Under the pieces are notes generated by a model that worked only from the letters and a program-made list of their open reading frames with translations, did not search any database and had not been told where the DNA came from. Positions 1,591 to 50,087 of a DNA stretch of 64,000 nt are shown piece after piece (within the stretch, counting starts at the first letter, position 1; every line of letters starts with the position of its first letter). The translations under genes were made by a program, and so were the position numbers. The stretch comes from a phage. The stretch is taken from the sequence record PV636258.1. The stretch is one strand, 5' to 3'.

Positions 1591-2181
1591 TTATTTCTTC
1601 AGATCAGGCCACGCACCAGAGGTCGCAGTAGACCCAGCTGGGGGAGCAGACTCAAGATCGGGAGAACCCGACTGAGTAACAACAGTGGGATCTTTGTTAA
1701 CCACTTTGACCCCAAACTGCTTGAGAGCATCCACAGCTTGCGCCTTCCGGCTGTTGCTTTTGTAATGGTTATACCCCTTGATACCGAATGATGCACTAAT
1801 TGCTGTCAATAACGAATAGGTATACCATTCAGGTGCGGTATCGAGCGCCTGGAGGCCGCCGATTACTGCTTTGATGAAATCCCCTTTATGATACTCATCA
1901 GGGAACAGAATTAGTTCCACAACCGGAGCAGTCATGACGAGGATAGCGGGTACGGCCAACACGATAGTCCAGAATTCGTCTTTCCAAGACCCGCCGACTT
2001 CGGTGATCTTAGACAGCTCCCAATCTGAGGAGGACTTGATAGCCTCTAGCTTGACATCGTGTTTTGCCTGAACAACTTCCCGCTTGTATTGGATCAAATC
2101 AGTCCCGAGGTTCCAGAGTTGCTTTAGCGCCCCTGGGATAATACTCACAAAGGGGATTGCCATAATAAACTCCTTGGTCAT
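1591..2181 (-). CDS. hypothetical membrane protein (single predicted TM)
   Basis: ORF 1591-2223 trimmed to ATG at 2181 with GAGGAA RBS; hydrophobic segment FWTIVLAVPAILVMTAPVV. Confidence 0.45.
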   Translation of the reverse strand: MTKEFIMAIPFVSIIPGALKQLWNLGTDLIQYKREVVQAKHDVKLEAIKSSSDWELSKITEVGGSWKDEFWTIVLAVPAILVMTAPVVELILFPDEYHKGDFIKAVIGGLQALDTAPEWYTYSLLTAISASFGIKGYNHYKSNSRKAQAVDALKQFGVKVVNKDPTVVTQSGSPDLESAPPAGSTATSGAWPDLKK

Positions 2182-2242
2182 TGAACGTTCCTCGGCTAAA
2201 TTACGGGGACGTGCTAACGGCACGGTTAACCGGAGACAAACA

Positions 2243-5239
2243 ATGACTGTTTTCTATACGAACGTTGCCCGACAGGGTAACGACCTTCTGATTCGTATTG
2301 CAGACGACAACGGCAATCGCCGTATGTTGCGTAAGAAATTCGAACCCACCTTGTATTTACCCACAGCCGATTATTCCAAAGTTGAAAAGATTGGCCTCCT
2401 CAATGAACCGTTGGTGTCTAAAAAATTTGCGTCAATGCGTGACGCCGACAACTATCTGGAGGAATATAAGGAGGTCGAAGGCGCTGCCGTTTACGGACAA
2501 ACGGATTATGCATATCAATTCATAGCGCATAGTTTTCCTGGGATGATTACCCCCGATTACTCAAATATTCACATCGCCAACGTGGATATCGAAGTTTTCT
2601 CGGCTGGGTGGCGCGATGGAGAAATGACTAAAGGCCCATTTCCTCACGCGACGATTGAATCCCACACGTTTAAGGGGAGTGAGGCGCGTGTTCGCCGATT
2701 CCATAAGCAAGTGTTGGCCAACCATGATTTCGTTCGAGAGCATTTCCCAGGTTCCTTTATTTCCAACAACGTGACTGACCAGTTCCCTATCATTGATAGT
2801 AATGGTAAGATCACACAGAACATGAATGCCGCCTTCCCTATTACGCTCATCCAGCTTCAAGACATGAACACCAACAAGTTCTATGTCTGGGGTATGCCGT
2901 GTTCTAAGGATCGCCATAAATTCAAATATGATCCAAATGATGAAGAGATAGGTGGTCTTGAGGTTGAATACAAAGAATACACGACTGAACAAGAACTTCT
3001 TCGCGCCTTCTTAGATTATTGGTCTGAACGTCAATTTGATGGTTGGACTGGCTGGAACATCGAAACGTTTGATAGCCCGTACTTGGTTGAACGTATTACG
3101 CAGGTTCTCGGCGAAACCCAGGCAGAGCGCCTCAGTCCTTGGGGCAAACTCAAGAAACGTTTCATCAAAGACCGTAAAGGCGACGTGACTTCTTATCAAT
3201 TCGTGGGTTGTCCTATGATGGACTACATGCAAGTTTACAAGAAACACACGTACACAACCCGCGAAAAATACTCACTGGATTGGATCGCTTATTGTGAACT
3301 CGGTGAGAAGAAGTTGGATTATAGTGAAAGCAAGTCATTGTATGATCTATATTTTAATGATTATTGCAAACACACCCGATATGGTATCAAAGACGTCAAA
3401 CTCGTGTGGCGTTTAGAACAAAAGCTGCGTTTGATACAGCTGATGTTCGTATTGGCGTATCGCACCAAATCTAACTATGAAGACGGTCTTGGGACTGTAG
3501 CACCATGGCTGGCGATGTGTTACTATCGTCTTTATGAAAAGGGGATTGTCCCTAAAATACAGCGTGTATATGATGGTCCAACAGACTTTGAAGGCGCATA
3601 TGTCATGGAGGTTGCACCAGGGATATATTTCTGGGTATTCTCTGAGGACTTAAACTCCCTGTATCCCCACATCATACAGCAATACAACCTTGGTCCTGAG
3701 ACTATCGTTTCTGACAAGCACACACGTCGCGATATCATTGAGTCCATGTGTGAAGAATTGACCAAAGCGATGAATGATATGACAACGCCTATGAACAAGC
3801 GCCGTCATCTCAAAAATCTTCACGACAAGCTGCAGCGTGCTATTGATGAACGCATACAAGTTGTTGATGAATTGGTCGCGCTGGGTGAATTCCATTTTGA
3901 AACATTACGTCGATATAACGTTTCGTTTACCCCGAACGTTCAATTCTTCAGTAATGAGAAGATGTCTTTCCTTTCCGAAATTATGCGAGGCATATACGCT
4001 GACCGTAAAGGAGAGAAAGCAACTGGCCTGAAGTATGAGCAATGGGCTGGTTGGTGTAAGGAAATGTCTAAAGGTGATTTCCACCTTGAATCCGCCATGA
4101 AGTCTCGTTTCTACGATCCTGAATGGTATGAAGAACACAAGCATATCGACCTTGATCACCTGACTGAAGTCATGCATAAGTGGGAAGATTTGGGAGTTGC
4201 CCAAGATACGTTACAACAAGGTCTGAAGATCTTGATGAACGCAGGATATGGTGCAATTTCTAACGTCTGGTTTAAAGAATACTTCAACATCAACATCGCT
4301 GAAGCAATTACCACTTCCGGCCAGCTGATCAATAAATGGAACAAACGCCACACTGATGATTATCTGAACAAACTTTGTGGCACCACTGGTCAGGATTTTG
4401 TTATCGCAGGTGATACAGACTCCAATTATATTTGCATTGAACGCCTGGTCAAGCAATTGTGGCCTGAAGAAAAGGACCATCACAAACTCGTTGATAACAT
4501 TGACCAATGGATCAAAGAGAATTACCAGCCAAAAACCAGTGAATGGGCGCAGTTGTTGTGTAATACCATGAACGGGTTTGAGCAGCGCATGGTCTGGGAA
4601 CGTGAGGTCATCGCATCGTCTGCTGTATGGCGAGCCAAGAAGATGTATTGCATGGCAGTATACGATAGCGAAGGCATCAAGTATGAGAAGCCAAAGATCA
4701 AATTCAAAGGTTTGGAAGCGCGTAAATCAACCACTCCTGAGTGGTGTCGTGAGCGTCTGGTTAAATGTTATGAGAAAGTCCTGCTCGGTACTGAGGCAGA
4801 GGTTCAGGAATTAATCGCTGGATACAAAAAGGAATATATGGAACTCACCGTGGATGATATCGCTCAGGCATCTGGTGTGAGCGATATTGAGAAGTGGTTA
4901 GACGCGAACGGGAATTACATCAGCGGTACGCACTTTGCTGCCAAGGCTTGTATTATGTACAACAAGCTGATCGATAAGCACGAAGATCTCGGTCTTCCCC
5001 CTATCGAATCTGGCGATAAGGTTAAAATCATCAACCTGAAACCTGGCAATCCTGTGGGGAATGATCGCATAGCCTTCCCTGACTTCCTTCCTCCAGAATT
5101 GGGATTGGATAAATGGGTGGATTACCACACCACGTTTGAAAAGACCTTTATAGAGCCAATTCAGTCTATCTTGGATGTGGTTGGTTGGTCTCATAAACGT
5201 CGAGTTAATCTGTTGTCCATGATGGGCAAGAAAGGTTGA
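2243..5239 (+). CDS. 43: DNA polymerase, family B (T4 gp43-like)
   Basis: ORF 2084-5239 trimmed to ATG 2243 (GGAG 7 nt upstream); exonuclease and polymerase motifs incl. YPHIIQQYNLGPETIV (motif A region), NAGYGAIS (KxxxNSxYG-like), IAGDTDSNYI (motif C YGDTDS). Confidence 0.93.
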   Translation: MTVFYTNVARQGNDLLIRIADDNGNRRMLRKKFEPTLYLPTADYSKVEKIGLLNEPLVSKKFASMRDADNYLEEYKEVEGAAVYGQTDYAYQFIAHSFPGMITPDYSNIHIANVDIEVFSAGWRDGEMTKGPFPHATIESHTFKGSEARVRRFHKQVLANHDFVREHFPGSFISNNVTDQFPIIDSNGKITQNMNAAFPITLIQLQDMNTNKFYVWGMPCSKDRHKFKYDPNDEEIGGLEVEYKEYTTEQELLRAFLDYWSERQFDGWTGWNIETFDSPYLVERITQVLGETQAERLSPWGKLKKRFIKDRKGDVTSYQFVGCPMMDYMQVYKKHTYTTREKYSLDWIAYCELGEKKLDYSESKSLYDLYFNDYCKHTRYGIKDVKLVWRLEQKLRLIQLMFVLAYRTKSNYEDGLGTVAPWLAMCYYRLYEKGIVPKIQRVYDGPTDFEGAYVMEVAPGIYFWVFSEDLNSLYPHIIQQYNLGPETIVSDKHTRRDIIESMCEELTKAMNDMTTPMNKRRHLKNLHDKLQRAIDERIQVVDELVALGEFHFETLRRYNVSFTPNVQFFSNEKMSFLSEIMRGIYADRKGEKATGLKYEQWAGWCKEMSKGDFHLESAMKSRFYDPEWYEEHKHIDLDHLTEVMHKWEDLGVAQDTLQQGLKILMNAGYGAISNVWFKEYFNINIAEAITTSGQLINKWNKRHTDDYLNKLCGTTGQDFVIAGDTDSNYICIERLVKQLWPEEKDHHKLVDNIDQWIKENYQPKTSEWAQLLCNTMNGFEQRMVWEREVIASSAVWRAKKMYCMAVYDSEGIKYEKPKIKFKGLEARKSTTPEWCRERLVKCYEKVLLGTEAEVQELIAGYKKEYMELTVDDIAQASGVSDIEKWLDANGNYISGTHFAAKACIMYNKLIDKHEDLGLPPIESGDKVKIINLKPGNPVGNDRIAFPDFLPPELGLDKWVDYHTTFEKTFIEPIQSILDVVGWSHKRRVNLLSMMGKKG

Positions 5240-5275
5240 TTCAATAAACCAAAGGGGGATATAATTCCCCCTGTT
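5236..5275 (+). promoter_or_regulatory. intergenic hairpin (GGGGGA-TATAAT-TCCCCC) preceded by TTCAATAAA; terminator and/or sigma70-like promoter (TTGATT-18-TATAAT)
   Basis: Directly after polymerase stop; GC stem 5254-5271 with TATAAT in loop; TTGATT at 5236-5241 lies 18 nt upstream of the TATAAT. Confidence 0.45.
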
Positions 5276-5299
5276 ATCCCTTTGACAACAGGTATTGTT

Positions 5300-5644
5300 A
5301 TGAAACTCAATAAGATTCTTCTGGTGTGTGCTCTGGCTTTCTCTACCACTGCATGCTCTACCCTTCTGGACGTTGCGTCTACTGTTGACCTCGATGCGCC
5401 GACGTTCACCAATCAGCAAGCGGTGAATAAGATGGAAGACACCATCAAGGCACATGCTGCGTTGGATAACACCACTCCTGGTCCGTTGCAAACTGTTTGC
5501 AATTATGACGATTCCATCCAGGAAGATGAAACCTATCACTGTACCACTTACGTGAAGGAATCTTCTGTGGTTCTGTATGCAGATTGCACAGAAGAGCAAT
5601 GCACCGCAACTGGTTATGATCAAGTGGAGAAGTCTGATGAATAA
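5300..5644 (+). CDS. small secreted/lipoprotein-like protein
   Basis: ATG at 5300; N-terminal signal-peptide-like MKLNKILLVCALAFSTTAC; several Cys in mature part. Confidence 0.45.
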   Translation: MKLNKILLVCALAFSTTACSTLLDVASTVDLDAPTFTNQQAVNKMEDTIKAHAALDNTTPGPLQTVCNYDDSIQEDETYHCTTYVKESSVVLYADCTEEQCTATGYDQVEKSDE

Positions 5645-6419
5645 TCATGTTGGTCTGTATGATGCCAATTCTAAAATCGGTGGAATGTATCGTATCCTGG
5701 TAGACGTAGACTTGACTTTGGTTGATAGCCTCTCCCCTTGGGTGGATTGGTTTAATATTTCCAATTCAAAAGCTGCTGCTGAAAACATGGGTTGTCATGA
5801 TTATCCCAATGATTTCCAGCGTATCACCAAAGAGTGCTATATGGCTCATGCTGGTGATTTGGCGATCCTCATGCGGGAACGCGCTCACCCAGCATGGTTG
5901 ACACGCCGTGTGTTTGTTGCTGGTCAATGGATGGATTCACCTACAGGACGTGATCCTATGGATTGGTGGCGCATGCCGGACCTGTATGCCAAGATGAACC
6001 CGCTTCCAGGCGCTTACGAGTTCCTGGTGAATCTGAAGAAGATCCTACTCGAAGACTTTGAAAATGTTGAATTGATCGCAGTATCTAAGTGTGAGCCAGA
6101 ACACGAGCGCAGCAAGCGCCAGTTTGTCTATGACAAGTTCCCTGGCATCTTCAACGGGTTTGTCAGCACCGACGAAAAGCATCTTTTGGCAGGTGATGTT
6201 TTAATTGATGATAACCCGAAATACGTTGAACCCTGTGCGATGAACAATATTTTTGTCATCTTTGTTCCTCAGGGAAATTATGAAAAACTGGATCTTTCGA
6301 ACTCGGAAGATATGCTTTATATTAAACCAGTAGAAGGCCAGAACCACTTCGACTTCCTGAACCGCAATATTGTCGAAGTGGTGAACCGCCTGATTGGCCA
6401 TTATCAATACGTCCATTGA
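5637..6419 (+). CDS. HAD-superfamily hydrolase (nucleotidase/phosphatase-like)
   Basis: Start ATG 5637 overlapping upstream stop; HAD motif I ILVDVDLTLVDS (DxDxT) and C-terminal VLIDDNP aspartate motif. Confidence 0.6.
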   Translation: MNNHVGLYDANSKIGGMYRILVDVDLTLVDSLSPWVDWFNISNSKAAAENMGCHDYPNDFQRITKECYMAHAGDLAILMRERAHPAWLTRRVFVAGQWMDSPTGRDPMDWWRMPDLYAKMNPLPGAYEFLVNLKKILLEDFENVELIAVSKCEPEHERSKRQFVYDKFPGIFNGFVSTDEKHLLAGDVLIDDNPKYVEPCAMNNIFVIFVPQGNYEKLDLSNSEDMLYIKPVEGQNHFDFLNRNIVEVVNRLIGHYQYVH

Positions 6420-6429
6420 GGAGGACATC

Positions 6430-6735
6430 GTGCAAGAACAATCTAAGTTTGGGGAAACCCCAGACAAGCGTTCCGGTGATAGCGATATGGATGGCGTTAT
6501 TATCCATGTGAACAACTTCATTCGTAAACAAACCACACCCACTTCCGTTGGTGCGGCGCTGGAATTAAAGCGTGTTCTGATAGAAAACGGTATGGCACCA
6601 GATGACGATGAAATTTTCTATAACTTCGACGACCAGTATAAAGTGAAGTTTGAAGAGAATGGCCGCCCACAGGTTGCTGTTTTCTGGTCTCCCTGGTTGG
6701 GCGGTGTGAGCTGGCGTATTGAGGAAGATGCATAA
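6430..6735 (+). CDS. hypothetical protein
   Basis: ORF 6394-6735; GTG at 6430 preceded by GAGGAGG at 5-nt spacing chosen as start. Confidence 0.4.
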   Translation: MQEQSKFGETPDKRSGDSDMDGVIIHVNNFIRKQTTPTSVGAALELKRVLIENGMAPDDDEIFYNFDDQYKVKFEENGRPQVAVFWSPWLGGVSWRIEEDA

Positions 6736-7640
6736 TGGCTAAAATAATTGTAGTGAAAGGCACCTCGGCCACGGGCAAGGGTACGAGAGTAGTCCAGTTC
6801 ATCGAATGGCTCCGAACTAAGCTGGAGCCTACTGAACTCACCTACACCATTGGTGACAAGACGCGCCCATTCGGCCTGAAGTTCGAAGAGCTGAAGTTAA
6901 TCTTCGTTGGCCAGTATACTGTGTCCAACAAATCCGGCCTGGCTTCCTGGACTTCCATGGACGCCATCCACGCCGCCACAGGCTCGGGTGATATCGCCCG
7001 TGATCTGGTCAAAGGCTGGCTGGCTCAGGGTTACACTTTGGTGTGCGAGGGTGAACCCCTCATGCTATCGGATAAATGGCGTCCTGAATGGATGTTCAAG
7101 AACTATCCGATTGAATCTCTGGCGTTGCTTTATTTTGCATACCCAGACCGCTATCAGTATGATGCACGCATCCGTGGTCGCTCTGGTAAGGAAGCAGGGG
7201 ACTCCGGCTGGTCACGCAACGAATCTTACTCCAAGGAGTTTGAGAAGTCGAAGACTGAAATGCTGGTGCTGGGTTGGGAAGTGGTGGTCAATGACTACAG
7301 CGGGCAAGACGTGTTGTACCGTCAATCGCCTACAAACACTCAAGAATTCAAAACAGGAAATGATAGCGAATTAGCCATGATGCCGTTTGATGCACCTTTA
7401 TGGGTGATTGGCAACGCTATTCATCATCAAATGCGTGGTGAGTTTCACGCCATGGGTCTGGACATCAAAGATTTCTACGGATTCTGTGAAACTGACCCAA
7501 TGACGCGTGAAGTCGGTGGGGATGATCCTCTAGCGCATCGAGTCCCTGAGAAGGCGACCAAATCTAAAACCAAGGCGAGCGCCAAGGGAGAGGTAACAAA
7601 GTCCTCTGTATCCCTTCTCGGCCTGTTGAGTAAGGGTTAG
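6735..7640 (+). CDS. P-loop NTPase / kinase-like protein
   Basis: ATG overlaps upstream stop (TAATG); Walker A-like KIIVVKGTSATGKGT near N-terminus; no further assignable motifs. Confidence 0.55.
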   Translation: MAKIIVVKGTSATGKGTRVVQFIEWLRTKLEPTELTYTIGDKTRPFGLKFEELKLIFVGQYTVSNKSGLASWTSMDAIHAATGSGDIARDLVKGWLAQGYTLVCEGEPLMLSDKWRPEWMFKNYPIESLALLYFAYPDRYQYDARIRGRSGKEAGDSGWSRNESYSKEFEKSKTEMLVLGWEVVVNDYSGQDVLYRQSPTNTQEFKTGNDSELAMMPFDAPLWVIGNAIHHQMRGEFHAMGLDIKDFYGFCETDPMTREVGGDDPLAHRVPEKATKSKTKASAKGEVTKSSVSLLGLLSKG

Positions 7641-7642
7641 AA

Positions 7643-7846
7643 ATGAAACAGATGTCTAAATATTTTGTGTTCGTCGGATTGGTGATGTGTATCACAGCTG
7701 TGCTTGTCGGTGTCATGAAATATTTGGGCATCGTTGAGTTGGATTCAATCGAAATATTGAACGTTTACGCGTTATATTATTTGGGGGGTGCTATCTTATT
7801 AACGCCTTTCGTCTATAACATAATTCAGAGTTTCAAAAGGAATTAA
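7643..7846 (+). CDS. small membrane protein
   Basis: 67-aa ORF, two hydrophobic segments. Confidence 0.4.
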   Translation: MKQMSKYFVFVGLVMCITAVLVGVMKYLGIVELDSIEILNVYALYYLGGAILLTPFVYNIIQSFKRN

Positions 7847-7847
7847 A

Positions 7848-8198
7848 ATGAAAATCCTCATTCCACGCAACGTTGTCGCTGTTGCTATTGATTACCGTGG
7901 TGATGCGAAGATGATTAACGCTGTCCGTTATTATCCGGAACAGAATAAAATCGTCCCACAATTTCAACTGAATACCAATCCTTCTTCTAAGGATTTCGGT
8001 TCTTGGCGTCAGGTGGGTTTGGCTCGTACCCAGGTCAATGCCCAGCATTTTATTTCCGAAAAGACGAAAACCGCCAAGCAAATTTGGTTGGTGACGAATG
8101 ATCGTCGTTTCCTGCCTATCTGGTCTCTGGGACAGCCCGTAGTAAGCCCCGAAGATATCCAACTCGAAGCCGAGGTGAAGGATGACGCATCTGTCTAA
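7848..8198 (+). CDS. hypothetical protein
   Basis: 116-aa ORF tightly packed between neighbours. Confidence 0.4.
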   Translation: MKILIPRNVVAVAIDYRGDAKMINAVRYYPEQNKIVPQFQLNTNPSSKDFGSWRQVGLARTQVNAQHFISEKTKTAKQIWLVTNDRRFLPIWSLGQPVVSPEDIQLEAEVKDDASV

Positions 8199-9423
8199 AA
8201 TGCCGCAGGGATATAAAGCCCCTGAAAAATGGAAATACCCGATTGATCTGGCAGTAGATTATCGTAAGCCAGAAAATCGCATGTACCTGCTCAAGGCATG
8301 GGTGGAGGCGCTATCCTACACTGAAGAGCATAACCAGCAAGTCCGTCTGATGGATTATGCCATCGAGGTTACAGAAGGCATCACACAGCTCGAAAAGATC
8401 GAGCGCAAGATTTGGATGGCCTTTTTGTGGGGGTGTTGCTATAATGGGATTGGACCATGGACAATTTACAGTGAATTTCCTGTACCCCCACAATCTCCGA
8501 AAGAGTTTCAGCGATTTTCTGATTGGTATAACCTGAATTTTGATCGTATGCGCTTCGATACAGATTGTCGTTATCGTAAGTCGAAAATGATTCCGTGCGT
8601 TCAGTCCTATATCGATTGGTTGGGTGGTAAAACCCAAATGGATTCTTTTCGTTGGATGTTGGAATGCACTACCAAGGAAGACCAGTTCACCGAACTGTGG
8701 AATACGGCGATGTCATGGAAATACTTCGGTCGCCTGAGCGCATGGAACTTCCTGGAAGCCCTGAACATGGTCTTCGGTAACATATGGGATATAGACGTCC
8801 CTGGGTTCATGTTGCGTGACCGTGATGGTAGCGAATCCAATCGTAACGGCGCGGCGTTCTTATCCAACCGTGATGATTGGGTGACCAAGCACGGGAAGAA
8901 AAAGATCAACGGTTGTCCTATTACAGACGAAGAATGTGATATACTCGAAACCGACCTTGAGAAAGCGTTTCAGGAATGCGTTGAAGAGTTTGGCCACATC
9001 ACGTTTATCAATCGTCTGAACTTTGAGACCTCCGGTGCTTGTTGGTTGAAGAAATTCTTCCGACTGAAGAATACCCGTTACATCGGGTGGGACGCCGAGC
9101 GTACATGGGACGAGATCGATTATATGGAACGTATTTGGCCTGAATACTCCTGTGCACCTCTCTGGGAAGCCCGTTCACTCTGGCTACCAGATACCCTGTT
9201 ATGTGAGAAGGCTCCTGCAGGGCACGTTCCAGGCGTCCAGAAGTGGAAGATGCCCGTGTTCTTTGAGACGGGTGTTCCTCTACATATCTGGCATTTACAG
9301 CAGGGTACACGTTGGGAACCGTCTGAGGTTTGTTTGTCAGTTGGTAAATTGGACACCATGAGCCGAAATGGTACTGTGTATCCTTCTAAAAGTGTGAACC
9401 TCATGACACTCTTGAAACGCTGA
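8182..9423 (+). CDS. hypothetical protein (413 aa, Trp/Cys-rich)
   Basis: Long ORF with no motif I can assign; overlaps upstream gene end by 17 nt. Confidence 0.5.
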   Translation: MTHLSKMPQGYKAPEKWKYPIDLAVDYRKPENRMYLLKAWVEALSYTEEHNQQVRLMDYAIEVTEGITQLEKIERKIWMAFLWGCCYNGIGPWTIYSEFPVPPQSPKEFQRFSDWYNLNFDRMRFDTDCRYRKSKMIPCVQSYIDWLGGKTQMDSFRWMLECTTKEDQFTELWNTAMSWKYFGRLSAWNFLEALNMVFGNIWDIDVPGFMLRDRDGSESNRNGAAFLSNRDDWVTKHGKKKINGCPITDEECDILETDLEKAFQECVEEFGHITFINRLNFETSGACWLKKFFRLKNTRYIGWDAERTWDEIDYMERIWPEYSCAPLWEARSLWLPDTLLCEKAPAGHVPGVQKWKMPVFFETGVPLHIWHLQQGTRWEPSEVCLSVGKLDTMSRNGTVYPSKSVNLMTLLKR

Positions 9424-9431
9424 TATAAATA
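9424..9431 (+). promoter_or_regulatory. T4-type late promoter-like box TATAAATA
   Basis: Exact TATAAATA 28 nt upstream of ATG at 9459. Confidence 0.3.
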
Positions 9432-9458
9432 TCCTCGCTATAAAGTGAGGATATTATC

Positions 9459-9626
9459 ATGTTACAAGATCTGTTGGTTTATGCGCTTCCTGGCGTTGTT
9501 GTCGGCTTCGTAGCTGGCGCTCTGGTCTTCCGTAAACACGCGCAAGACGGTGAAGTGATTGTTCAGAAGGGTAAAGACATCCTGGAACAAATCGAAGCCA
9601 AACTGGACGAGCTGAAGAAAAAGTAA
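9459..9626 (+). CDS. small membrane protein (55 aa)
   Basis: ATG 9459 after GAGGATATTATC; hydrophobic N-terminus LLVYALPGVVVGFVAGALVF; below ORF-track size cutoff; the minus ORF 9462-9719 is its shadow. Confidence 0.4.
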   Translation: MLQDLLVYALPGVVVGFVAGALVFRKHAQDGEVIVQKGKDILEQIEAKLDELKKK

Positions 9627-9640
9627 TCTGATTGCGATTG

Positions 9641-9695
9641 CGTTCTTCAATAAAGGGGAATGGGTTATTATTAGCCCGTTCCCCTTTCTTTTTGC
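9641..9695 (+). terminator. intrinsic terminator-like hairpin of the recurrent TTCAATAAA family
   Basis: GTTCTTCAATAAA then AAAGGGGAATGGG / CCCGTTCCCCTTT stem with TTATTATT loop, followed by CTTTTT. Confidence 0.5.
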
Positions 9696-32272: not shown

Positions 32273-32590
32273 ATGATTTCATTAAAAGAAATGTACGAAC
32301 GCCTCGAAGAACTGAAATCTAAAGAACGTCTGTATTCAGAAGAGAATGCAGAAATGTCAGATCTTATCGAAAAAATTGCGTTGCGTGAAAAGTATCTTCA
32401 ACGTTATATCAATCATCCACCTCATATGGTTGAGCGCATGTCTACAATTCTCGAATTGGACAGCAGCGGTGTAACAGGCAAAGACCTGATTGTCAAAGAG
32501 GTTCATTCCATGGTGTCACTCGGTCAGATCTTTGGCCGCGCCGACCAGGATGACATGATCTTTTTACTTGAAAAGGCTCTGGTAAAATAA
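32273..32590 (+). CDS. hypothetical protein
   Basis: ATG 32273 (MISLKEMYERL). Confidence 0.4.
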   Translation: MISLKEMYERLEELKSKERLYSEENAEMSDLIEKIALREKYLQRYINHPPHMVERMSTILELDSSGVTGKDLIVKEVHSMVSLGQIFGRADQDDMIFLLEKALVK

Positions 32591-33111
32591 TGGCTATCAA
32601 ACCACGAATGATGTTCGCCCATATGCGATCAGCTGCAGCATATGGTGTAACCAGTTATGCTCGGCGTCTGCAAGTCGGTTGTGTTATCGTAAACCCTGAA
32701 ACTGATCAGCCTGTGGCTATCGGATGGAACGGAACGCCTCCTGGCATGCCGAATGTTTGTGAGATGGAACAACACGGGCAAATTGTTACAAACCCGCGTG
32801 TCATTCATGCGGAGGAAAATGCTCTAATGCGTATCCCCGAAAATGCAGATGATTTCACAGGGTTGGTTATGTTTGTGACACATAGCCCATGCCCTGATTG
32901 CACTCAGAAGATCATCGACAACGGCAAGATCGATAAAGTATATTATCAAGAGCCATATCGTATCATGGATGGAATCAAAATATTGATGAACTCCGGAATT
33001 GAAGTTTACCGGATGGTGGGCGATATGGCAATCCTTAAACACGTTTTCGACGATCAAGGCGAAGTCGGATACGAACAAATCTTATCCAACCCAGACAAAG
33101 TAAGGAATTAA
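32590..33111 (+). CDS. cd: dCMP deaminase
   Basis: Zinc-dependent cytidine/dCMP deaminase motifs HAEENAL and SPCPDC. Confidence 0.8.
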   Translation: MAIKPRMMFAHMRSAAAYGVTSYARRLQVGCVIVNPETDQPVAIGWNGTPPGMPNVCEMEQHGQIVTNPRVIHAEENALMRIPENADDFTGLVMFVTHSPCPDCTQKIIDNGKIDKVYYQEPYRIMDGIKILMNSGIEVYRMVGDMAILKHVFDDQGEVGYEQILSNPDKVRN

Positions 33112-42253: not shown

Positions 42254-42463
42254 TTACTTCCTCATCATATTCAATAAATTAATTTTACCCTTTGCTTCTG
42301 GGGCATACCAAACGTTCTGAGAGTGCCTCTTACAGCACGGACAATCCTTGGTGGCAATTACACAGGGAGCCTTGTCCACGGCATATCCAGCGTCTTCGGC
42401 TTCCTTGACGGTGTTAAATGGCAAGTATGCACTTGTGCCTTGCCCTCCGCATGAACATTCCAT
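42254..42463 (-). CDS. small Cys-rich protein (zinc-ribbon-like)
   Basis: CSCGG ... CPCCKRH cysteine pairs. Confidence 0.4.
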   Translation of the reverse strand: MECSCGGQGTSAYLPFNTVKEAEDAGYAVDKAPCVIATKDCPCCKRHSQNVWYAPEAKGKINLLNMMRK

Positions 42464-46358: not shown

Positions 46359-47421
46359 TATCGAGGCGCTCCAGCATATCTGCAGGCATAACCGAACTCT
46401 GAGAGATACCGAACATGTTGTTCACATCGTCAACAAAGTCTGGGTTTTCCAGCAGCGGATACCAGAAGTCATCCCCCAGCTCTGCCTTACGATATTTCTT
46501 TTCTTTTTCTGGATCAAACCCGCCTTTGGCAGTGCGTTGATACCAAGAACCACTCACCAAATCCACATACCCCAGCATGCGCGCAATTTCTAACATACCG
46601 GACCAACGGTCAATACCGCCTTCATACAACACAGTGACAGGGAACTTGGCTTTTTCACGGACAAAGCGGCCTTTCATAATGTTGACTGTAAACTGCCATC
46701 CCAAAAGGTCTTTGTCTTCTTTAACTTGAGAACGCGTGATGAACCACAATTGGTTAGAAGACAGGAACCCCTGTTTACCGCCTTTGATGTTCGGCTCGGC
46801 GTATTGGTTCCCGATTTCATCATAGTACGAGTTGATCCATACCAAAACGAATTTCTTTTCAGTGACCAACGGGGTGATAACACGCCAAAAACTATTGAGA
46901 GCGCGAGCGCGGGTCATATCTTGTGTGTCTTTGCCCGCGATGGCATCATCAACTTCTTTGGTAGACGGCAACTGGCTGATTGAGTCAATGAATACGATGA
47001 TCTTGTCACCTTTCTGTGCATCGTTCAGAAGCTGTGTCAGCTTGATCTTCGTCTTTTCAACGTTTTCAATCGGCAGATACAAGACACGGTCCATGTCAAT
47101 ACCCATAGATGTCCAGTAGTTTTCATTCGCACCGCCTTCTGAATCCGCGAAGATACAAATTGCATCAGGAAACTTATCCATGTAAGCCTTAACATCCACC
47201 AGCCCAAACATGGTTTTGAATGTACGAGAATCCCCTACCAACTGTTTGATGCCTGATATCAGACCACCATCAATACGACCGGACCAGGCCAAATTCAGAA
47301 TAGGAATACCCGTACTGCAAATAATGTCAGGCTTCAGCGCATCGGTCTTTGACAGCACTTCGGCATTCGGGTCCAGTTTCTTTGCTGTCTTGAGCATGCG
47401 AGCCATCAATGAATCGGCCAT
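46336..47421 (-). CDS. uvsX: UvsX recombinase (RecA/Rad51 family)
   Basis: 361 aa; N-terminal similarity to T4 UvsX architecture, Walker A GDSRTFKT, KVDDAIAGKDTQDMTRA region. Confidence 0.9.
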   Translation of the reverse strand: MADSLMARMLKTAKKLDPNAEVLSKTDALKPDIICSTGIPILNLAWSGRIDGGLISGIKQLVGDSRTFKTMFGLVDVKAYMDKFPDAICIFADSEGGANENYWTSMGIDMDRVLYLPIENVEKTKIKLTQLLNDAQKGDKIIVFIDSISQLPSTKEVDDAIAGKDTQDMTRARALNSFWRVITPLVTEKKFVLVWINSYYDEIGNQYAEPNIKGGKQGFLSSNQLWFITRSQVKEDKDLLGWQFTVNIMKGRFVREKAKFPVTVLYEGGIDRWSGMLEIARMLGYVDLVSGSWYQRTAKGGFDPEKEKKYRKAELGDDFWYPLLENPDFVDDVNNMFGISQSSVMPADMLERLDNVIKTTE

Positions 47422-47936
47422 TTCGTTTCCTCTTGCTTGTTGATCGTAATTAATAAATCGGTGCCCAAGACTTTCTTGGACAATATATTGATTGCTTCGT
47501 GAATCGCCATTATTGACGGGAGTTTTTCATCGTTAATTTCGGAACCCCCGCGTTCTGTTAAATACATATTACGCAGACGATTGTGCTGTGCCCTGTTGAC
47601 ACAAGAAACATTCAATGCGATATTCAGGATATACATCATTTGTTCAGTTGTAACATCCTTTGGAATAGCATGAACATAATATATCGCATCTTCAAAATAG
47701 ATATGCTGTAATGACTCAGGAATTTCTTCTCCACCGAAAGCAAAATCTTCAATACGTTTGAAAAGGGTTTCCGGCTCTGGTGTTGTAATATGTTGCGTTA
47801 CAGTAGCCGCACCATCTGGTTCTTTGTTGAATTTGGTCGCGATAACGACATGACCGCCTGGTTTAATAAACTCAGCGAAGTTCTCTGCCATGTGCGGGGC
47901 ATATTCCGCATAATATGATACGACAACTGTAAACAT
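47406..47936 (-). CDS. hypothetical protein
   Basis: 176-aa ORF coupled within nucleotide-metabolism operon. Confidence 0.45.
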   Translation of the reverse strand: MFTVVVSYYAEYAPHMAENFAEFIKPGGHVVIATKFNKEPDGAATVTQHITTPEPETLFKRIEDFAFGGEEIPESLQHIYFEDAIYYVHAIPKDVTTEQMMYILNIALNVSCVNRAQHNRLRNMYLTERGGSEINDEKLPSIMAIHEAINILSKKVLGTDLLITINKQEETKWPIH

Positions 47937-48481
47937 TAGAACTCCAGAGTCAGAGGGGTTTCGGCAGACTTGTCATAGTTCGCACCGCCAGCAGCACGTA
48001 GACGATTGCGATCGTTTTTGCGCTTGTGTGCCAGCATGTAGGTCTCAGCATCCAGCCCCAAATATCCGCAAGCCGCTGCCAAGAAGGTAGCCAAAACATT
48101 CCGAAGAGGGTGTGACATGAAATACGTGAACAGTTCAGTCACTTTCCTGAGGTCGTTAGGGGTTTGAATTGGCTGCGCCTGAACGAATCTCACCATTTCT
48201 GGAATATCGTGTGGTTTGTCTTCCTCCTGCAGGACAGCACAGAGCATGAAGTGAACAACGTCCACCAACTCGTATATGGCATCCACTTGTCGCCAATGCT
48301 TACCACCCCCATAGATCTTCCAGTCTATGGTTGTTTCGTCTAGAAACTCTGCCCACTCACGATAGATGGAGTTTGCTATCGCCACTTCGGTCCAGCGCTT
48401 CTTCCACTCTTCCCCAAAATAGGCCACGTTGGTGGCCTTTTGAAGTTCGAGCAGACTTTTAATATGCTCTGCTGTGATCAT
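47936..48481 (-). CDS. 56: MazG-like dNTP pyrophosphatase (gp56 dCTPase/dUTPase-like)
   Basis: EWAEFLDET and ELVDVVHFML acidic helix motifs as in T4 gp56-type all-alpha NTP-PPases. Confidence 0.55.
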   Translation of the reverse strand: MITAEHIKSLLELQKATNVAYFGEEWKKRWTEVAIANSIYREWAEFLDETTIDWKIYGGGKHWRQVDAIYELVDVVHFMLCAVLQEEDKPHDIPEMVRFVQAQPIQTPNDLRKVTELFTYFMSHPLRNVLATFLAAACGYLGLDAETYMLAHKRKNDRNRLRAAGGANYDKSAETPLTLEF

Positions 48482-49047
48482 TTCCGATCCCTATAAAATT
48501 TGACGAACGGTTGCCAACCTTCAAACGGATTGACAAATTCATAATCAACTTCCATCTTATCAATGAAAGCCTCAATGTCATCCTCTATGATACCACCGCG
48601 ATCCGCCTTTGAAATGCGGGTGATGGGACATTTAGTGCTCAGCGCCCATTCATATTCCTGAGGGGTGCGCAAATCACTCACGATATAATGAACGTGTGGG
48701 TTCTGTTCCACCAAAGGAAGTTGATATCGTTTAAAGAATGACAGAAACAGGTCTGGTTGTACGTAACGCAAGCCCGTATCGCTGCCGAGATGAAGCCAGA
48801 TCTGCCGTGGAGTTAATCCCTTGGGGTTATCAGGGTGAACATATGGCAAGTCCTTGATGTCGTCCTCTACTTCCTCTGGCAACCAAGGATAGATGTAATG
48901 AGCCACCCGACGCAACTCGTCTGAGAAAGATAAGCGCTGGATGTCCATATCACCCTGTAAATGGTGAAAGCTGATGAGGGACTCCAAACAGAAGTCCTTG
49001 CCGGAGCGCTTGCGCCCCGTAAAGAATTCCAGATTAGGGTATTTCAT
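48478..49047 (-). CDS. 1: deoxynucleoside monophosphate kinase (gp1-like)
   Basis: P-loop FFTGRKRSGKDF resembles T4 gp1 FLSGVKRSGKDT; ATG at 49047 overlaps upstream stop (ATGA). Confidence 0.7.
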   Translation of the reverse strand: MKYPNLEFFTGRKRSGKDFCLESLISFHHLQGDMDIQRLSFSDELRRVAHYIYPWLPEEVEDDIKDLPYVHPDNPKGLTPRQIWLHLGSDTGLRYVQPDLFLSFFKRYQLPLVEQNPHVHYIVSDLRTPQEYEWALSTKCPITRISKADRGGIIEDDIEAFIDKMEVDYEFVNPFEGWQPFVKFYRDRK

Positions 49048-50087
49048 TCCCCATACCCCCACATGTGTTTACGGTCAACGGGTGATTGTAACAACGCATT
49101 ACGAAGACCATCATCAGCAATCCGACGTTTATCAATTTTAGTATCATTAAGGCGACACCACAGACAATATGACATATCCATCATCAAACCTGTATCTGCG
49201 TTATATTCCTTCAAATGCTCTCTGATTTTACCAAATTCACTGCCAATGTCACAGTGATGAAGTACACCGAGGAACAGATTTTGGATGTTTTCTTGACATT
49301 TCACCTTTTCCGAAGAGAATTCCAACAAAGAATTGTACATACCAGTAGAAGTTCGGGTCTTGTTGGTTATGTTCCCGAGTTGCTTCCGACTGACTTCGTT
49401 GTTGTAATAGTGAAGGTTATTCGAGAACAGTTTATAATTCCCGACTTCCACGTTCAACACCTTCGCCAATACTTCCTGCAAAATGGAGAATTCAATGAAG
49501 TTGATTGAACTCATACCCCAGAGGACATCCTGACTTCGATTGATGACCGTGATGTTCAACCGCCCTTCTGTTATACTGAACAATAAAGCCAGATTACAGA
49601 TCATGTCTTTAGTCTTGGCTTCTCCTGTTTCACTATGCGCGGCCAAACTTTCATCTGAGTCCAGAGCTGGATCATAGATGGTGAGATACGCCTGACGGGT
49701 GTTGGGGTTATTGCGCAAACGGTTGATGACACTATTCAGCTGGCCATAGTTGTACAGGCGTGGTCCGTAAGCACCACGCCACGTTACGCCATCATCCGAG
49801 AAGTTGACCGCACGAGGGAGGACTCGGGAAAGGAAACGGATGTCATTGCGGCCTGACAGAACCCAGAATGTTTCACCAATCGCAGCAAGCGCAGATGAAT
49901 TACGACCTTCAACAGATAACCAACGATCTCGAGGGTCAGCCACCGTAATCGTCACGCCATCAATAAAACGAGTGCCGTCAGTGTTAATCTCTGCGTTGCC
50001 AGGATCTGACTCAATCCCGTGTTCACGGATAGCCAACACAGCTTTCTTCAGCATATCATTATTGTTTAAAGCAAAAATCTCCATCAA
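49044..50087 (-). CDS. thymidylate synthase-family enzyme, divergent (candidate deoxypyrimidylate hydroxymethylase)
   Basis: TS-fold motif series: GAYGPRLYNYGQ, NNPNTRQAYLTIYDP, Cys in DMICNLALLF, NRSQDV, SSINF (Asn at uracil-specifying position), SNNLHYY; 347 aa with C-terminal extension. Confidence 0.8.
   Translation of the reverse strand: MMEIFALNNNDMLKKAVLAIREHGIESDPGNAEINTDGTRFIDGVTITVADPRDRWLSVEGRNSSALAAIGETFWVLSGRNDIRFLSRVLPRAVNFSDDGVTWRGAYGPRLYNYGQLNSVINRLRNNPNTRQAYLTIYDPALDSDESLAAHSETGEAKTKDMICNLALLFSITEGRLNITVINRSQDVLWGMSSINFIEFSILQEVLAKVLNVEVGNYKLFSNNLHYYNNEVSRKQLGNITNKTRTSTGMYNSLLEFSSEKVKCQENIQNLFLGVLHHCDIGSEFGKIREHLKEYNADTGLMMDMSYCLWCRLNDTKIDKRRIADDGLRNALLQSPVDRKHMWGYGE

What the first reader, a model, noticed from the sequence alone, without database searches (positions are those of the whole stretch)
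5637..7640. Separate HAD phosphatase-like and P-loop kinase-like genes near the polymerase
T4 polynucleotide kinase/phosphatase combines a P-loop kinase and a HAD phosphatase in one 301-aa polypeptide; here a HAD protein (DxDxT) and a 301-aa P-loop protein (GTSATGKGT) are separate neighbouring genes with little resemblance to T4 Pnkp beyond the motifs. They could be a split end-healing system or a second nucleotide/DNA kinase for a modified base.
Basis: partly seen in the sequence, partly recalled or inferred. Interest (0 to 1): 0.45.

Follow-up and report, generated by a model that had tools for sequence, protein, structure and literature searches.

The report
Known phage thymidine-hypermodification kinase plus nucleotidase
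The two genes are not a split DNA/RNA end-repair enzyme: the P-loop protein is the already characterised kinase that phosphorylates hydroxymethyl-uracil bases in the DNA of ViI/CBA120-type phages, and the HAD protein is a deoxynucleotide phosphatase that most likely clears thymidine nucleotides from the pool.

Summary
A 260-aa HAD protein (DVDLT) lies at 5637-6419 and a 301-aa P-loop protein (GTSATGKGT) at 6735-7640, downstream of a family-B DNA polymerase. A 101-aa gene separates them.

The window is a Kuttervirus (ViI/CBA120-like) phage, about 99% identical in DNA to known isolates.

- **P-loop protein:** it matches Pfam HMUD2 "5-hmdU DNA kinase 2" over its full length (E 1.8e-149). It is 86% identical and syntenic to ViI gp243, which was shown in vitro to phosphorylate 5-hydroxymethyl-dU in DNA.
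- **Downstream gene:** the 413-aa protein is the ViI gp247 serine:DNA transferase orthologue.
- **HAD protein:** it is an NT5C-type 5'(3')-deoxyribonucleotidase by Pfam, conserved motifs and predicted fold. I infer it is the dTMPase of the hydroxymethyl-dU pathway.
- **T4 Pnkp:** neither protein resembles it.

The end-healing reading is rejected. The "DNA kinase for a modified base" reading is right but already published.

One extra, apparently unreported: the kinase, the transferase and ViI gp160 end in the polymerase's own C-terminal tail motif. This tail co-varies across three phage lineages and is absent from the HAD protein, which suggests tethering to the sliding clamp.

The parts
2243..5239 (+). 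Family-B (T4 gp43-like) DNA polymerase. Its C-terminal tail is ...KRRVNLLSMMGKKG, with the motif at about nt 5204-5224.
   Evidence: It is the orthologue of ViI Vi01_190 'Gp43 DNA polymerase' and CBA120 orf237. The tail was read.
5236..5265 (+). Sigma-70-like promoter match (TTGATT-18-TATAAT) ahead of the gene block 5300-9626.
   Evidence: It is a consensus scan only, matching 10 of 12 positions. This is suggestive, not proof.
5300..5644 (+). Small predicted lipoprotein (DUF7292), function unknown.
   Evidence: It matches Pfam PF23964 at E 2.9e-53. Its N-terminus MKLNKILLVCALAFSTTAC looks like a lipobox.
5637..6419 (+). HAD-superfamily NT5C-type 5'(3')-deoxyribonucleotidase, a candidate dTMPase. 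DVDLT is at nt 5703-5717 and LIDD at residues 189-192. It has no polymerase-type tail.
   Evidence: It matches Pfam NT5C at 32.9 bits, above the 24.8-bit cut-off. All HAD motifs are invariant. The AF2 model has pLDDT 87, and its top PDB matches are cdN, mdN and 3bwv. It is 86% identical to ViI Vi01_194.
6430..6735 (+). 101-aa DUF7254 protein of unknown function, translationally coupled to the kinase gene.
   Evidence: It matches Pfam PF23912 at E 4e-52. It has a GTG start with a GAGGAGG ribosome-binding site and a TAATG overlap with the kinase start. A small gene occupies the same position and overlaps the kinase start in K469, phiMAM1 and phiA8-29. It has no PDB or NCBIfam match.
6735..7640 (+). 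5-hmdU DNA kinase, clade 2 (HMUD2), the orthologue of ViI gp243. The P-loop GTSATGKGT is at nt 6759-6785. The disordered linker spans residues 275-291. The C-terminal tail ...KSSVSLLGLLSKG has its motif at about nt 7608-7628.
   Evidence: It matches Pfam PF18747 at E 1.8e-149 over 1-298 of 298 profile positions. It is 86% identical to ViI gp243. ViI gp243 kinase activity was shown in vitro (PMC8989533).
7643..7846 (+). 67-aa predicted membrane protein (phrog_4514), function unknown.
   Evidence: It is conserved as ViI Vi01_197.
7848..8198 (+). 116-aa protein (phrog_4163), function unknown.
   Evidence: It corresponds to ViI Vi01_198.
8182..9423 (+). Amino acid:DNA transferase (aGPT-Pplase clade 2), the orthologue of ViI gp247 serine:DNA transferase. 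Its tail is ...SKSVNLMTLLKR, with the motif at about nt 9394-9414.
   Evidence: It matches Pfam ADDT PF18724 at E 1.9e-57. It is 87% identical to ViI gp247. gp247 activity is reported in PMC8989533.
9652..9687 (+). Strong intrinsic-terminator-like hairpin (16-bp stem followed by a T run) that closes the gene block.
   Evidence: It comes from the pattern scan.
50084..50746 (-). First 5-hmdU DNA kinase (HMUD1), the orthologue of ViI gp67. It has no polymerase-type tail.
   Evidence: tblastn gives 94% identity to ViI orf00067. It matches Pfam PF18748 at E 2.9e-112. The tail ...FLNRDFGSID was read.
49044..50084 (-). Thymidylate-synthase homologue, the presumed dUMP hydroxymethylase.
   Evidence: It is 93% identical to ViI thyA/orf00066. 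It matches Pfam Thymidylat_synt at E 1.9e-15. Its role is taken from PMC8989533 and PMC5889632.
48478..49047 (-). dNMP kinase (ViI 'dnk' orthologue).
   Evidence: It is 94% identical to ViI orf00065. The orthologous gene in K469 is annotated deoxynucleoside monophosphate kinase.
47936..48481 (-). Dimeric-type dUTPase (dUTPase_2), a candidate dUTP/dTTP pyrophosphatase.
   Evidence: It is 89% identical to the ViI dUTPase. It matches Pfam PF08761 at E 5.5e-9.
32590..33111 (+). dCMP deaminase, which supplies dUMP.
   Evidence: It is 94% identical to ViI orf00033.
42254..42463 (-). 69-aa Cys-rich small protein ending in the same tail motif (...KGKINLLNMMRK), function unknown.
   Evidence: The ViI orthologue orf00053 ends ...DKVNLLSLMRK and carries CxxC pairs. 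It has no Pfam hit.

Best explanation
The region is part of the thymidine-hypermodification machinery of a Kuttervirus (ViI/CBA120-type) phage, whose DNA carries 5-(2-aminoethoxy)methyl-dU.

Pre-replicative steps (inferred from gene content and the published pathway):
- dCMP deaminase and a thymidylate-synthase homologue make 5-hydroxymethyl-dUMP, and a dNMP kinase phosphorylates it.
- A dUTPase-type enzyme and the HAD protein remove competing thymidine nucleotides.
- The HAD protein would be an NT5C-type 5'(3')-deoxyribonucleotidase acting on free dNMPs, most plausibly dTMP.

Replication and post-replicative steps (shown for the 86-87% identical ViI proteins, inferred here by orthology):
- The adjacent family-B polymerase incorporates hmdU.
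- The 301-aa P-loop protein transfers the gamma-phosphate of ATP to the 5-hydroxymethyl group of hmdU in DNA, giving 5-phosphomethyl-dU.
- The downstream amino acid:DNA transferase replaces the phosphate with serine.
- A PLP decarboxylase, encoded just outside the window, yields the final base.

Additional inference: the kinase and the transferase carry the polymerase's C-terminal tail on a flexible linker. They are therefore probably recruited to the gp45-type sliding clamp and act at or just behind the fork. The HAD protein has no such tail and works on soluble nucleotides.
For: Identity of the window:
- It is 98-99% identical in DNA to Kuttervirus phages.

Kinase:
- It matches Pfam HMUD2 over its full length, at 497 bits against a 25-bit cut-off.
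- It is 86% identical to ViI gp243 and in the same gene order.
- ViI gp243 phosphorylates 5-hmdU DNA in vitro (PMC8989533).

Transferase:
- It matches Pfam ADDT and is 87% identical to ViI gp247.

Other pathway genes:
- A second kinase, the ThyA homologue, dNMP kinase, dUTPase_2 and dCMP deaminase are in the window.

HAD protein:
- It matches NT5C above the gathering score, and all catalytic motifs are invariant.
- The confident model has a cap domain, and its best PDB matches are cdN, mdN and 3bwv.
- Related nucleotidases occur in PhiW-14.
- A phage dTMPase is a recognised step of the hmdU pathway (PMC8989533).

Synteny:
- The cassette pol-HAD-small gene-kinase-transferase is conserved in five genera.

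Tail:
- The motif [VI][NS]L[LM].[LM][LM] occurs 4 times in 44,263 ORF residues. All four lie in the last 14 residues, of the polymerase, kinase, transferase and a 69-aa protein. Shuffles give an expectation of 0.03.
- The tail changes in step in Vibrio phage K469 (K[KR]LW on pol, HMUD2, ADDT and HMUDK_hel).
- It changes again in PhiW-14 (LG.FF on pol, kinase, transferase and gp33).
- It is absent in M6, which has a family-A polymerase.
- The linker is disordered and ends in a short helix.
- In T4, the C-termini of gp43, gp33 and gp55 bind gp45 (PMC2988020).
- ViI encodes gp45, gp44 and gp62.
Against: - No activity was measured for this window's proteins. Function is transferred by orthology at 86-87% identity.
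- The substrate of the HAD protein is unknown. NT5C-like proteins also occur in phages not known to use hmdU (the PhiW-14 homologue is noted as similar to an rV5 protein). In PhiW-14 the homologue is not next to the kinase. Adjacency in Ackermannviridae could therefore be inherited synteny rather than functional coupling.
- The clamp link is an analogy. Aeromonas phage phiA8-29 has a VNVLKFF polymerase tail but K[KR]LW tails on the modification enzymes. The ViI gp55 tail does not match. The T4 precedent of a clamp-bound modification enzyme (alpha-glucosyltransferase) is disputed (bioRxiv 10.64898/2025.12.06.692756).
Confidence: 0.8

Rival explanations
1. Split T4 Pnkp-like end-healing system. 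The P-loop protein phosphorylates 5'-OH polynucleotide ends, and the HAD protein removes 3'-phosphates, repairing tRNA or DNA nicked by host defences.
For: It rests only on shared superfamily motifs (a P-loop and DxDxT), proximity and the coincidental 301-aa length. One PNKP-phosphatase-domain viral protein appears far down the HAD fold list (rank 48, E 1e-4), which reflects the generic HAD fold.
Against: The kinase is a full-length HMUD2 member and the orthologue of a demonstrated base kinase. Neither protein hits Pnkp chains in the PDB at E<=1, and no Pnkp appears in the top 50 fold matches. The HAD protein has a large cap domain of about 95 residues, which is typical of small-molecule HAD enzymes. 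Polynucleotide 3'-phosphatases are capless (established knowledge of HAD classification). The genes are separated by another gene.
Confidence: 0.02
2. The HAD protein is a general nucleotide-salvage or host-takeover 5'-nucleotidase, unrelated to base modification. It would dephosphorylate dNMPs released from host DNA, and it sits near the kinase only through inherited gene order.
For: NT5C/HAD-like proteins are spread over many phages without known hmdU. phrog_2643 '5'-3' deoxyribonucleotidase' is filed under auxiliary metabolism. The PhiW-14 homologue is not adjacent to modification genes.
Against: The close HAD family (phrog_420; 60 clusters at 42% identity or more) is confined to phages that also carry HMUD2, with nearly matching record counts of 372 against 351. 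Its position between the polymerase and the kinase is kept down to about 33% identity in Vibrio phages. The hmdU pathway needs a dTMPase and no other candidate was seen, although the window was not searched exhaustively.
Confidence: 0.2
3. The HAD protein acts on DNA. It would remove the phosphate from 5-phosphomethyl-dU, setting the fraction of modified thymidines or taking part in the unexplained conversion of hmdU to thymidine.
For: It is co-located and probably co-transcribed with the kinase that makes 5-PmdU. How hmdU becomes thymidine in these phages is stated to be unknown (PMC5889632).
Against: The capped NT5C fold encloses a small nucleotide. The HAD protein lacks the polymerase-type tail that the three DNA-acting modification enzymes carry in every lineage examined.
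Confidence: 0.04
4. The P-loop protein is a guanylate or dNMP kinase acting on free nucleotides, as RefSeq and PHROGs name it.
For: It is annotated 'guanylate kinase' in RefSeq and in phrog_4409. The weak best fold matches are guanylate and adenylate kinases (E about 1e-3, TM 0.3-0.45).
Against: The similarity is at fold level only. There is no PDB sequence hit and no NCBIfam hit. The orthologue phosphorylates hmdU in DNA. A separate dNMP kinase is already encoded.
Confidence: 0.03

Closest known systems
Salmonella phage ViI gp243 (5-hmdU DNA kinase, 'kinase 2'; Pfam PF18747 HMUD2)
   Same: It is 86% identical over the full length, in the same gene order (pol, DUF7292, HAD, DUF7254, kinase, two small genes, gp247), with the same P-loop region and C-terminal tail.
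   Different: There are only point differences, for example GTSATGKGT against GTSGTGKGT, and a slightly shorter linker. CBA120 orf243 is 100% identical over residues 1-288 by tblastn.
ViI gp67, PhiW-14 gp37 and M6 gp54 (5-hmdU DNA kinases of the HMUD1 type)
   Same: They have the same demonstrated reaction on hmdU DNA (PMC8989533). The window also encodes a gp67 orthologue.
   Different: They belong to a different Pfam family (PF18748) and are shorter, at 187-261 aa. ViI gp67 and M6 gp54 lack the polymerase-type tail, whereas PhiW-14 gp37 has one.
T4 polynucleotide kinase/phosphatase (Pnkp, PseT)
   Same: Both involve a P-loop kinase and a DxDxT HAD phosphatase encoded by a T4-like phage, and both kinases act on a nucleic-acid polymer.
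   Different: Pnkp phosphorylates 5'-OH termini, whereas this kinase phosphorylates a base hydroxymethyl group. There is no detectable sequence or preferential fold similarity. The HAD protein here is a capped NT5C nucleotidase rather than a capless polynucleotide 3'-phosphatase. The two are separate, non-adjacent genes.
Mammalian cytosolic and mitochondrial 5'(3')-deoxyribonucleotidases (cdN, mdN) and the S. epidermidis homologue 3bwv (Pfam NT5C)
   Same: They are the best sequence and structure matches. They share DxDxT, the LIDD motif IV and the overall capped HAD fold.
   Different: Identity is only about 15-18%. The cap region is about 30-40 residues longer and includes a beta-hairpin. 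Substrate preference is untested.
Phage-induced dTMP 5'-nucleotidase (dTMPase) of Bacillus hmU phages such as SP5C/SP8
   Same: It has the role proposed here, depleting dTMP so that hmdUTP replaces dTTP. It is cited as part of the pathway in PMC8989533.
   Different: To my knowledge those activities were defined biochemically, and I could not link them to a gene or family here. Equivalence is an inference.
C-terminal sliding-clamp-binding tails of T4/RB69 gp43, gp33 and gp55
   Same: Each is a short hydrophobic motif at the extreme C-terminus after a flexible linker, shared between the polymerase and other clamp clients (PMC2988020). Here it is shared by the polymerase, HMUD2 kinase, transferase and gp160, and in PhiW-14 also by gp33.
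   Different: The sequence is basic-hydrophobic (KxVNLLxMMxK) rather than hydrophobic-acidic. The clients are DNA base-modifying enzymes. No binding has been shown.

Membership tests
5-hmdU DNA kinase, clade 2 (Pfam PF18747 HMUD2) | Full-length match to the family profile above its gathering score | tested here: met
   The score is 497.3 bits against a 25-bit cut-off, covering residues 1-300 on profile positions 1-298 of 298.
5-hmdU DNA kinase, clade 2 (Pfam PF18747 HMUD2) | Intact P-loop (GxxxxGK) and conserved catalytic-core residues | tested here: met
   GTSATGKGT is present. G9, S11, G14, K15, G16, R18, the E105-G106-E107 block and the R149-S150-G151 block are invariant in 29 homologues.
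5-hmdU DNA kinase, clade 2 (Pfam PF18747 HMUD2) | Orthology to an experimentally characterised member | tested here: met
   It is 86% identical to ViI gp243 and syntenic with it. gp243 activity is reported in PMC8989533.
5-hmdU DNA kinase, clade 2 (Pfam PF18747 HMUD2) | Genomic association with an amino acid:DNA transferase (aGPT-Pplase) and a dUMP hydroxymethylase | tested here: met
   ADDT lies at 8182-9423. The ThyA homologue lies at 49044-50084.
5-hmdU DNA kinase, clade 2 (Pfam PF18747 HMUD2) | ATP-dependent phosphorylation of 5-hmdU in DNA | not testable with these tools
   This needs an enzyme assay.
NT5C 5'(3')-deoxyribonucleotidase (HAD superfamily, Pfam PF06941) | Profile match above the gathering score | tested here: met
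   The score is 32.9 bits against a 24.8-bit cut-off. The match is partial, covering profile positions 56-146 of 180. The K469 homologue matches positions 3-142.
NT5C 5'(3')-deoxyribonucleotidase (HAD superfamily, Pfam PF06941) | HAD catalytic motifs I-IV (DxDxT, S/T, K, DD) | tested here: met
   D23, D25 and T27 are invariant. Position 150 is S or T in 25 homologues. K151, K160, D191 and D192 are invariant.
NT5C 5'(3')-deoxyribonucleotidase (HAD superfamily, Pfam PF06941) | Capped HAD fold closest to known deoxyribonucleotidases | tested here: met
   The AF2 model has pLDDT 87. All of the top 11 PDB hits are cdN, mdN or 3bwv, with E from 4e-8 to 1e-6 and target-normalised TM of 0.54-0.75.
NT5C 5'(3')-deoxyribonucleotidase (HAD superfamily, Pfam PF06941) | Phosphatase activity on deoxynucleoside monophosphates, and which ones | not testable with these tools
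   This needs a substrate panel.
T4 Pnkp-type end-healing enzyme | Kinase domain homologous to the Pnkp 5'-kinase | tested here: not met
   There is no PDB sequence hit at E<=1. No Pnkp chain is among the top 50 fold matches. The only Pfam hit is HMUD2.
T4 Pnkp-type end-healing enzyme | Capless PNKP-type HAD 3'-phosphatase domain | tested here: not met
   The only Pfam hit is NT5C. The model has a cap of about 95 residues between motif I and the core. Pnkp is absent from the top 50 PDB matches.
T4 Pnkp-type end-healing enzyme | Partnership with an RNA ligase for break repair | not tested
   I did not search the window for RNA ligase genes.
gp45 sliding-clamp clients (T4 gp43/gp33/gp55-type C-terminal tail) | Short hydrophobic motif at the extreme C-terminus after a flexible linker | tested here: met
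   In the kinase, residues 275-291 have pLDDT below 50 and a helix spans 294-299. All four occurrences of the motif in the window lie in the last 14 residues.
gp45 sliding-clamp clients (T4 gp43/gp33/gp55-type C-terminal tail) | Motif shared with the cognate polymerase and co-varying between lineages | tested here: met
   Kuttervirus, Miltonvirus and Nezavisimistyvirus carry VNLLxMM-like tails. K469 carries K[KR]LW. PhiW-14 carries LG.FF, including on gp33. M6 is the negative control. One exception is the polymerase of phiA8-29.
gp45 sliding-clamp clients (T4 gp43/gp33/gp55-type C-terminal tail) | Physical binding to the clamp | not testable with these tools
   This needs a binding assay or a complex prediction. 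The available tool predicts monomers only.

The most novel reading that the evidence does not exclude
The enzymes that hypermodify thymidine on DNA are clients of the phage sliding clamp. These are the HMUD2 kinase, the amino acid:DNA transferase and the gp160-type aGPT-Pplase1.

They carry the DNA polymerase's own C-terminal clamp-binding tail, which co-evolves with it across Ackermannviridae, Vibrio phages and PhiW-14. Base modification would therefore be physically coupled to the replisome.

The untailed paralogue (gp67/HMUD1) would act off the fork, which could explain why there are two kinases. The untailed HAD protein would be the gene for the classical phage dTMPase.
Probability: 0.45. 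Interest if true: 0.55.

Novelty: already known. Interest (0 to 1): 0.22.

Why it matters
As written, the finding re-discovers a published system. The kinase, its partner transferase and the pathway were predicted in 2013 and reconstituted in vitro in 2018-2021 for ViI, and this window's proteins are 86-87% identical to those. Two practical points follow.

- **Annotation.** Public records are misleading. This family is named "guanylate kinase" in RefSeq, and the HMUD1-type kinases of PhiW-14, M6 and Vibrio phage K469 are named "terminase small subunit".
- **Open leads.** The NT5C-type HAD protein has no assigned role and is a concrete candidate for the dTMPase step. The shared, co-varying C-terminal tail gives a directly testable hypothesis that DNA hypermodification is coupled to replication through the sliding clamp. 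That matters for understanding how only a fraction of thymidines is modified. It could also help when these enzymes are used as DNA-modifying tools.

Tried and rejected
- **T4 Pnkp relationship.** I tested it by PDB sequence search at E<=1, by fold search and by Pfam. It is rejected.
- **"Guanylate kinase" annotation.** Only weak fold-level similarity supports it, and NCBIfam gives nothing. It is rejected as a functional name.
- **"Putative thioredoxin" for the 101-aa DUF7254 gene.** This name appears in some records. The protein has no CxxC, and the only thioredoxin-related PDB match is insignificant (E 1.6). It is rejected and the function stays unknown.
- **NCBIfam.** It gave no family for the HAD protein, DUF7254, the kinase or the transferase.
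- **Papers not held.** Iyer et al. 2013 and Neuhard et al. 1980 are not in the library. Their content is cited only through PMC8989533 and PMC5889632.
- **Literature searches.** I looked for any report of clamp binding by 5-HMUDK or the transferases, and for any function of the Ackermannviridae nucleotidase. Nothing turned up.
- **Searches not used.** I did not run the large metagenome, genome or representative-protein searches, because the identity of the genes was already settled.


Full report
**1. What is there**

ORF listing confirms a 260-aa protein at 5637-6419 (+) and a 301-aa protein at 6735-7640 (+), downstream of a family-B DNA polymerase.
- The HAD start at ATG 5637 has a GGAG 8 nt upstream and overlaps the end of the preceding small gene.
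- The kinase ATG overlaps the stop codon of a 101-aa gene (6430-6735) that lies between the two proteins (TAATG). The two genes of the finding are therefore neighbours but not adjacent.
- DVDLT (residues 23-27) and GTSATGKGT (residues 9-17) are present. Their key residues are invariant in alignments of 25 and 29 homologues.

**2. Where the window comes from**

Megablast of 5200-9500 finds 277 phage records. The best are 98-99% identical over the whole query: Salmonella phages Se_EM1, Chennai and STP-4, and Escherichia phage CBA120. All are Ackermannviridae, genus Kuttervirus. Gene order is the same as in Salmonella phage ViI.

**3. The P-loop protein**

- Pfam gives one hit, PF18747 HMUD2 "5-hmdU DNA kinase 2". 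It scores E 1.8e-149 (497 bits against a 25-bit cut-off) and covers the whole profile.
- The protein is 86% identical to ViI orf00243 (gp243), in the same position.
- Lee et al. (PMC8989533) report that ViI gp243, gp67, M6 gp54, PhiW-14 gp37 and SP10 gp186 each transfer one phosphate from ATP to the hydroxymethyl group of 5-hmdU in DNA, giving 5-PmdU.
- The family was predicted earlier by Iyer et al. 2013, as cited.
- The 413-aa protein at 8182-9423 is Pfam ADDT and 87% identical to ViI gp247, the serine:DNA transferase that acts on 5-PmdU.
- A second kinase, the orthologue of ViI gp67 (Pfam HMUD1), lies at 50084-50746 (-). Next to it are a thymidylate-synthase homologue, a dNMP kinase and a dUTPase_2 protein. 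A dCMP deaminase lies at 32590-33111.
- The PLP decarboxylase gp226 and gp160 map outside the window.
- There is no solved structure of the family.
- A confident model (pLDDT 85.5) resembles guanylate and adenylate kinases only weakly (E about 1e-3, TM 0.3-0.45). No T4 Pnkp chain is among the top 50 matches. This weak resemblance is the likely source of the RefSeq name "guanylate kinase".

**4. The HAD protein**

- Pfam NT5C (5'(3')-deoxyribonucleotidase) is hit above the gathering score, at 32.9 bits against 24.8.
- PHROGs place it in phrog_420 (unknown function), with a weaker hit to a deoxyribonucleotidase family.
- phmmer against PDB sequences finds only deoxyribonucleotidases (3bwv, mdN). 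The alignment covers both the DxDxT strand and the LIDD motif.
- All four HAD motifs are conserved in 25 homologues.
- The AF2 model (pLDDT 87) has a cap of about 95 residues between motif I and the Rossmann-like core.
- Its 11 best PDB matches are all cdN, mdN or 3bwv.
- Among viral models, good matches include the "nucleotidase" of PhiW-14 (E 1e-11). I located this as PhiW-14 gene 18 (tblastn E 1.6e-9).
- A capped HAD fold indicates a small-molecule substrate. Polynucleotide 3'-phosphatases of the Pnkp type are capless (established HAD classification).
- The published hmdU pathway includes phage dTTPase and dTMPase activities that empty the thymidine nucleotide pool (PMC8989533).
- This protein is the obvious candidate for the dTMPase, but its specificity is inferred, not shown. 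I found no paper assigning it a function.

**5. Is the pairing meaningful?**

- Close homologues of the HAD protein and of the kinase occur in almost the same set of phages, 372 and 351 records respectively.
- The order pol-HAD-small gene-kinase-transferase is kept in Kuttervirus, Miltonvirus, Nezavisimistyvirus, Tedavirus and Vibrio phage K469, down to about 40% identity.
- A promoter-like site at 5236-5265 and a strong terminator-like hairpin at 9652-9687 bracket the block. The genes overlap or abut.
- This fits co-expression. However, conserved synteny within one phage family is not independent evidence, and in PhiW-14 the nucleotidase is elsewhere.

**6. An additional observation bearing on mechanism**

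- The kinase alignment showed a conserved C-terminal tail after a variable, lysine-rich linker.
- The same tail ends the polymerase (...KRRVNLLSMMGKKG), the kinase (...KSSVSLLGLLSKG) and the transferase (...SKSVNLMTLLKR).
- The pattern [VI][NS]L[LM].[LM][LM] occurs four times in all 460 ORFs of the window (44,263 residues). All four lie within the last 14 residues. The fourth is a 69-aa Cys-rich protein at 42254-42463 (-). Shuffles give an expectation of 0.03.
- ViI gp160 (Pfam HMUDK_hel, aGPT-Pplase1) ends ...GSVNLLDRLKKPE. ViI gp67 (kinase 1), ViI gp226 (PLP enzyme) and the HAD protein lack the motif.
- The tail changes in step in other lineages:
  - In Vibrio phage K469, the polymerase, HMUD2, ADDT and HMUDK_hel end ...ARKLW...TKKLW...TRKLW and ...TKRLW.
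  - In PhiW-14, the polymerase, gp37 kinase, gene-109 transferase and gp33 end ...KLGAFFV...GLGGFFKG...GLGSFFR and ...SLGGFAAT.
- Phage M6 has a family-A polymerase. Its kinase, transferase and aGPT homologue are shorter and share no tail.
- In the kinase model, residues 275-291 are disordered and residues 294-299 form a short helix.
- In T4, the similar C-termini of gp43, gp33 and gp55 are the sliding-clamp-binding epitopes and sit on flexible linkers (PMC2988020).
- ViI encodes gp45, gp44 and gp62.
- I therefore infer that the DNA-acting hypermodification enzymes are clamp clients.
- Caveats:
  - In phiA8-29 the polymerase tail (VNVLKFF) differs from the K[KR]LW tails of the modification enzymes.
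  - The ViI gp55 tail does not match.
  - No binding has been measured.
  - The T4 alpha-glucosyltransferase-gp45 precedent is disputed.
- The library holds no paper that mentions this link.

**7. Verdict**

- The end-healing interpretation is rejected.
- The alternative interpretation, a DNA kinase for a modified base, is right but corresponds to a published and biochemically reconstituted system. This window's proteins are near-identical members of it, so the finding is already known.
- What remains open is the exact substrate of the nucleotidase, the role of the small coupled DUF7254 gene, the reason for two kinases, and the clamp-tail hypothesis.

Noticed in passing
window 5204-5224, 7608-7628, 9394-9414, 42263-42283(-); L005, L011, L012: The DNA polymerase, HMUD2 kinase, amino acid:DNA transferase and a 69-aa protein share one C-terminal tail motif (VNLLxMM-like). 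The motif occurs nowhere else in the window's ORFs. It co-varies with the polymerase tail in Vibrio phage K469 (K[KR]LW) and in PhiW-14 (LG.FF, also on gp33), and it is absent in phage M6. It looks like a sliding-clamp-binding tail on DNA hypermodification enzymes.
   Followed up: yes
window 42254-42463 (-): A 69-aa Cys-rich protein (ViI orf00053 orthologue, with CxxC pairs) of unknown function carries the same tail (...KGKINLLNMMRK). It has no Pfam family and may be another clamp client.
   Followed up: partly
window 6430-6735 (+); L005 8735-9001; L006 6199-6504; L007 6260-6493: A small gene of 77-116 aa (DUF7254 in Kuttervirus) always sits directly upstream of the kinase. Its end overlaps the kinase start (by 1, 4 or 8 nt) in four of the five lineages examined; in phiEa2809 the two annotated genes are separated by a gap. 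This suggests translational coupling. Some records call it a thioredoxin, but it has no CxxC and no structural or family match.
   Followed up: partly
relatives: H43, H56, H59, H61; proteins P0128-P0130; phrog_15209: In several Ackermannviridae, homing endonucleases are annotated at or next to the kinase locus. Some kinase homologues are 495-527 aa and only 41-44% identical. phrog_15209 ('endonuclease', 497 positions) matches the kinase over its C-terminal 295 positions. This suggests endonuclease-kinase fusions and allele replacement at this locus.
   Followed up: no
L003 5649-6201 versus window 7848-8198: CBA120 carries about 215 extra bases here relative to the window, and these include a 61-aa 'membrane protein' (orf247). 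This is why the megablast match comes in two pieces.
   Followed up: no
public annotation:: There are systematic misannotations. HMUD2 kinases are named 'guanylate kinase', 'thymidylate kinase' or 'deoxynucleotide monophosphate kinase'. HMUD1-type kinases of PhiW-14 (gp37), M6 (gp54) and Vibrio phage K469 are named 'terminase small subunit'.
   Followed up: partly
L013 17039-17674 (phage M6 gp59): In M6, an HD-superfamily hydrolase sits next to the thymidylate-synthase homologue. It may be a non-homologous counterpart of the nucleotide-pool-clearing enzymes (the HAD nucleotidase or dUTPase_2) of the Ackermannviridae.
   Followed up: no
window 2084-2242: The mechanical ORF for the polymerase starts at TTG 2084. 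Annotated orthologues of 998 aa start at the ATG at 2243 (MTVFYTNVARQG...), so the first 53 codons are probably not translated.
   Followed up: partly
window 47406-47936 (-): A 176-aa 'phage ACT-like domain' protein (PF24021, E 4e-87) lies directly downstream of the dUTPase/dNMP kinase/ThyA-homologue/kinase-1 cluster. ACT domains usually bind small-molecule effectors, so it may regulate nucleotide metabolism.
   Followed up: no
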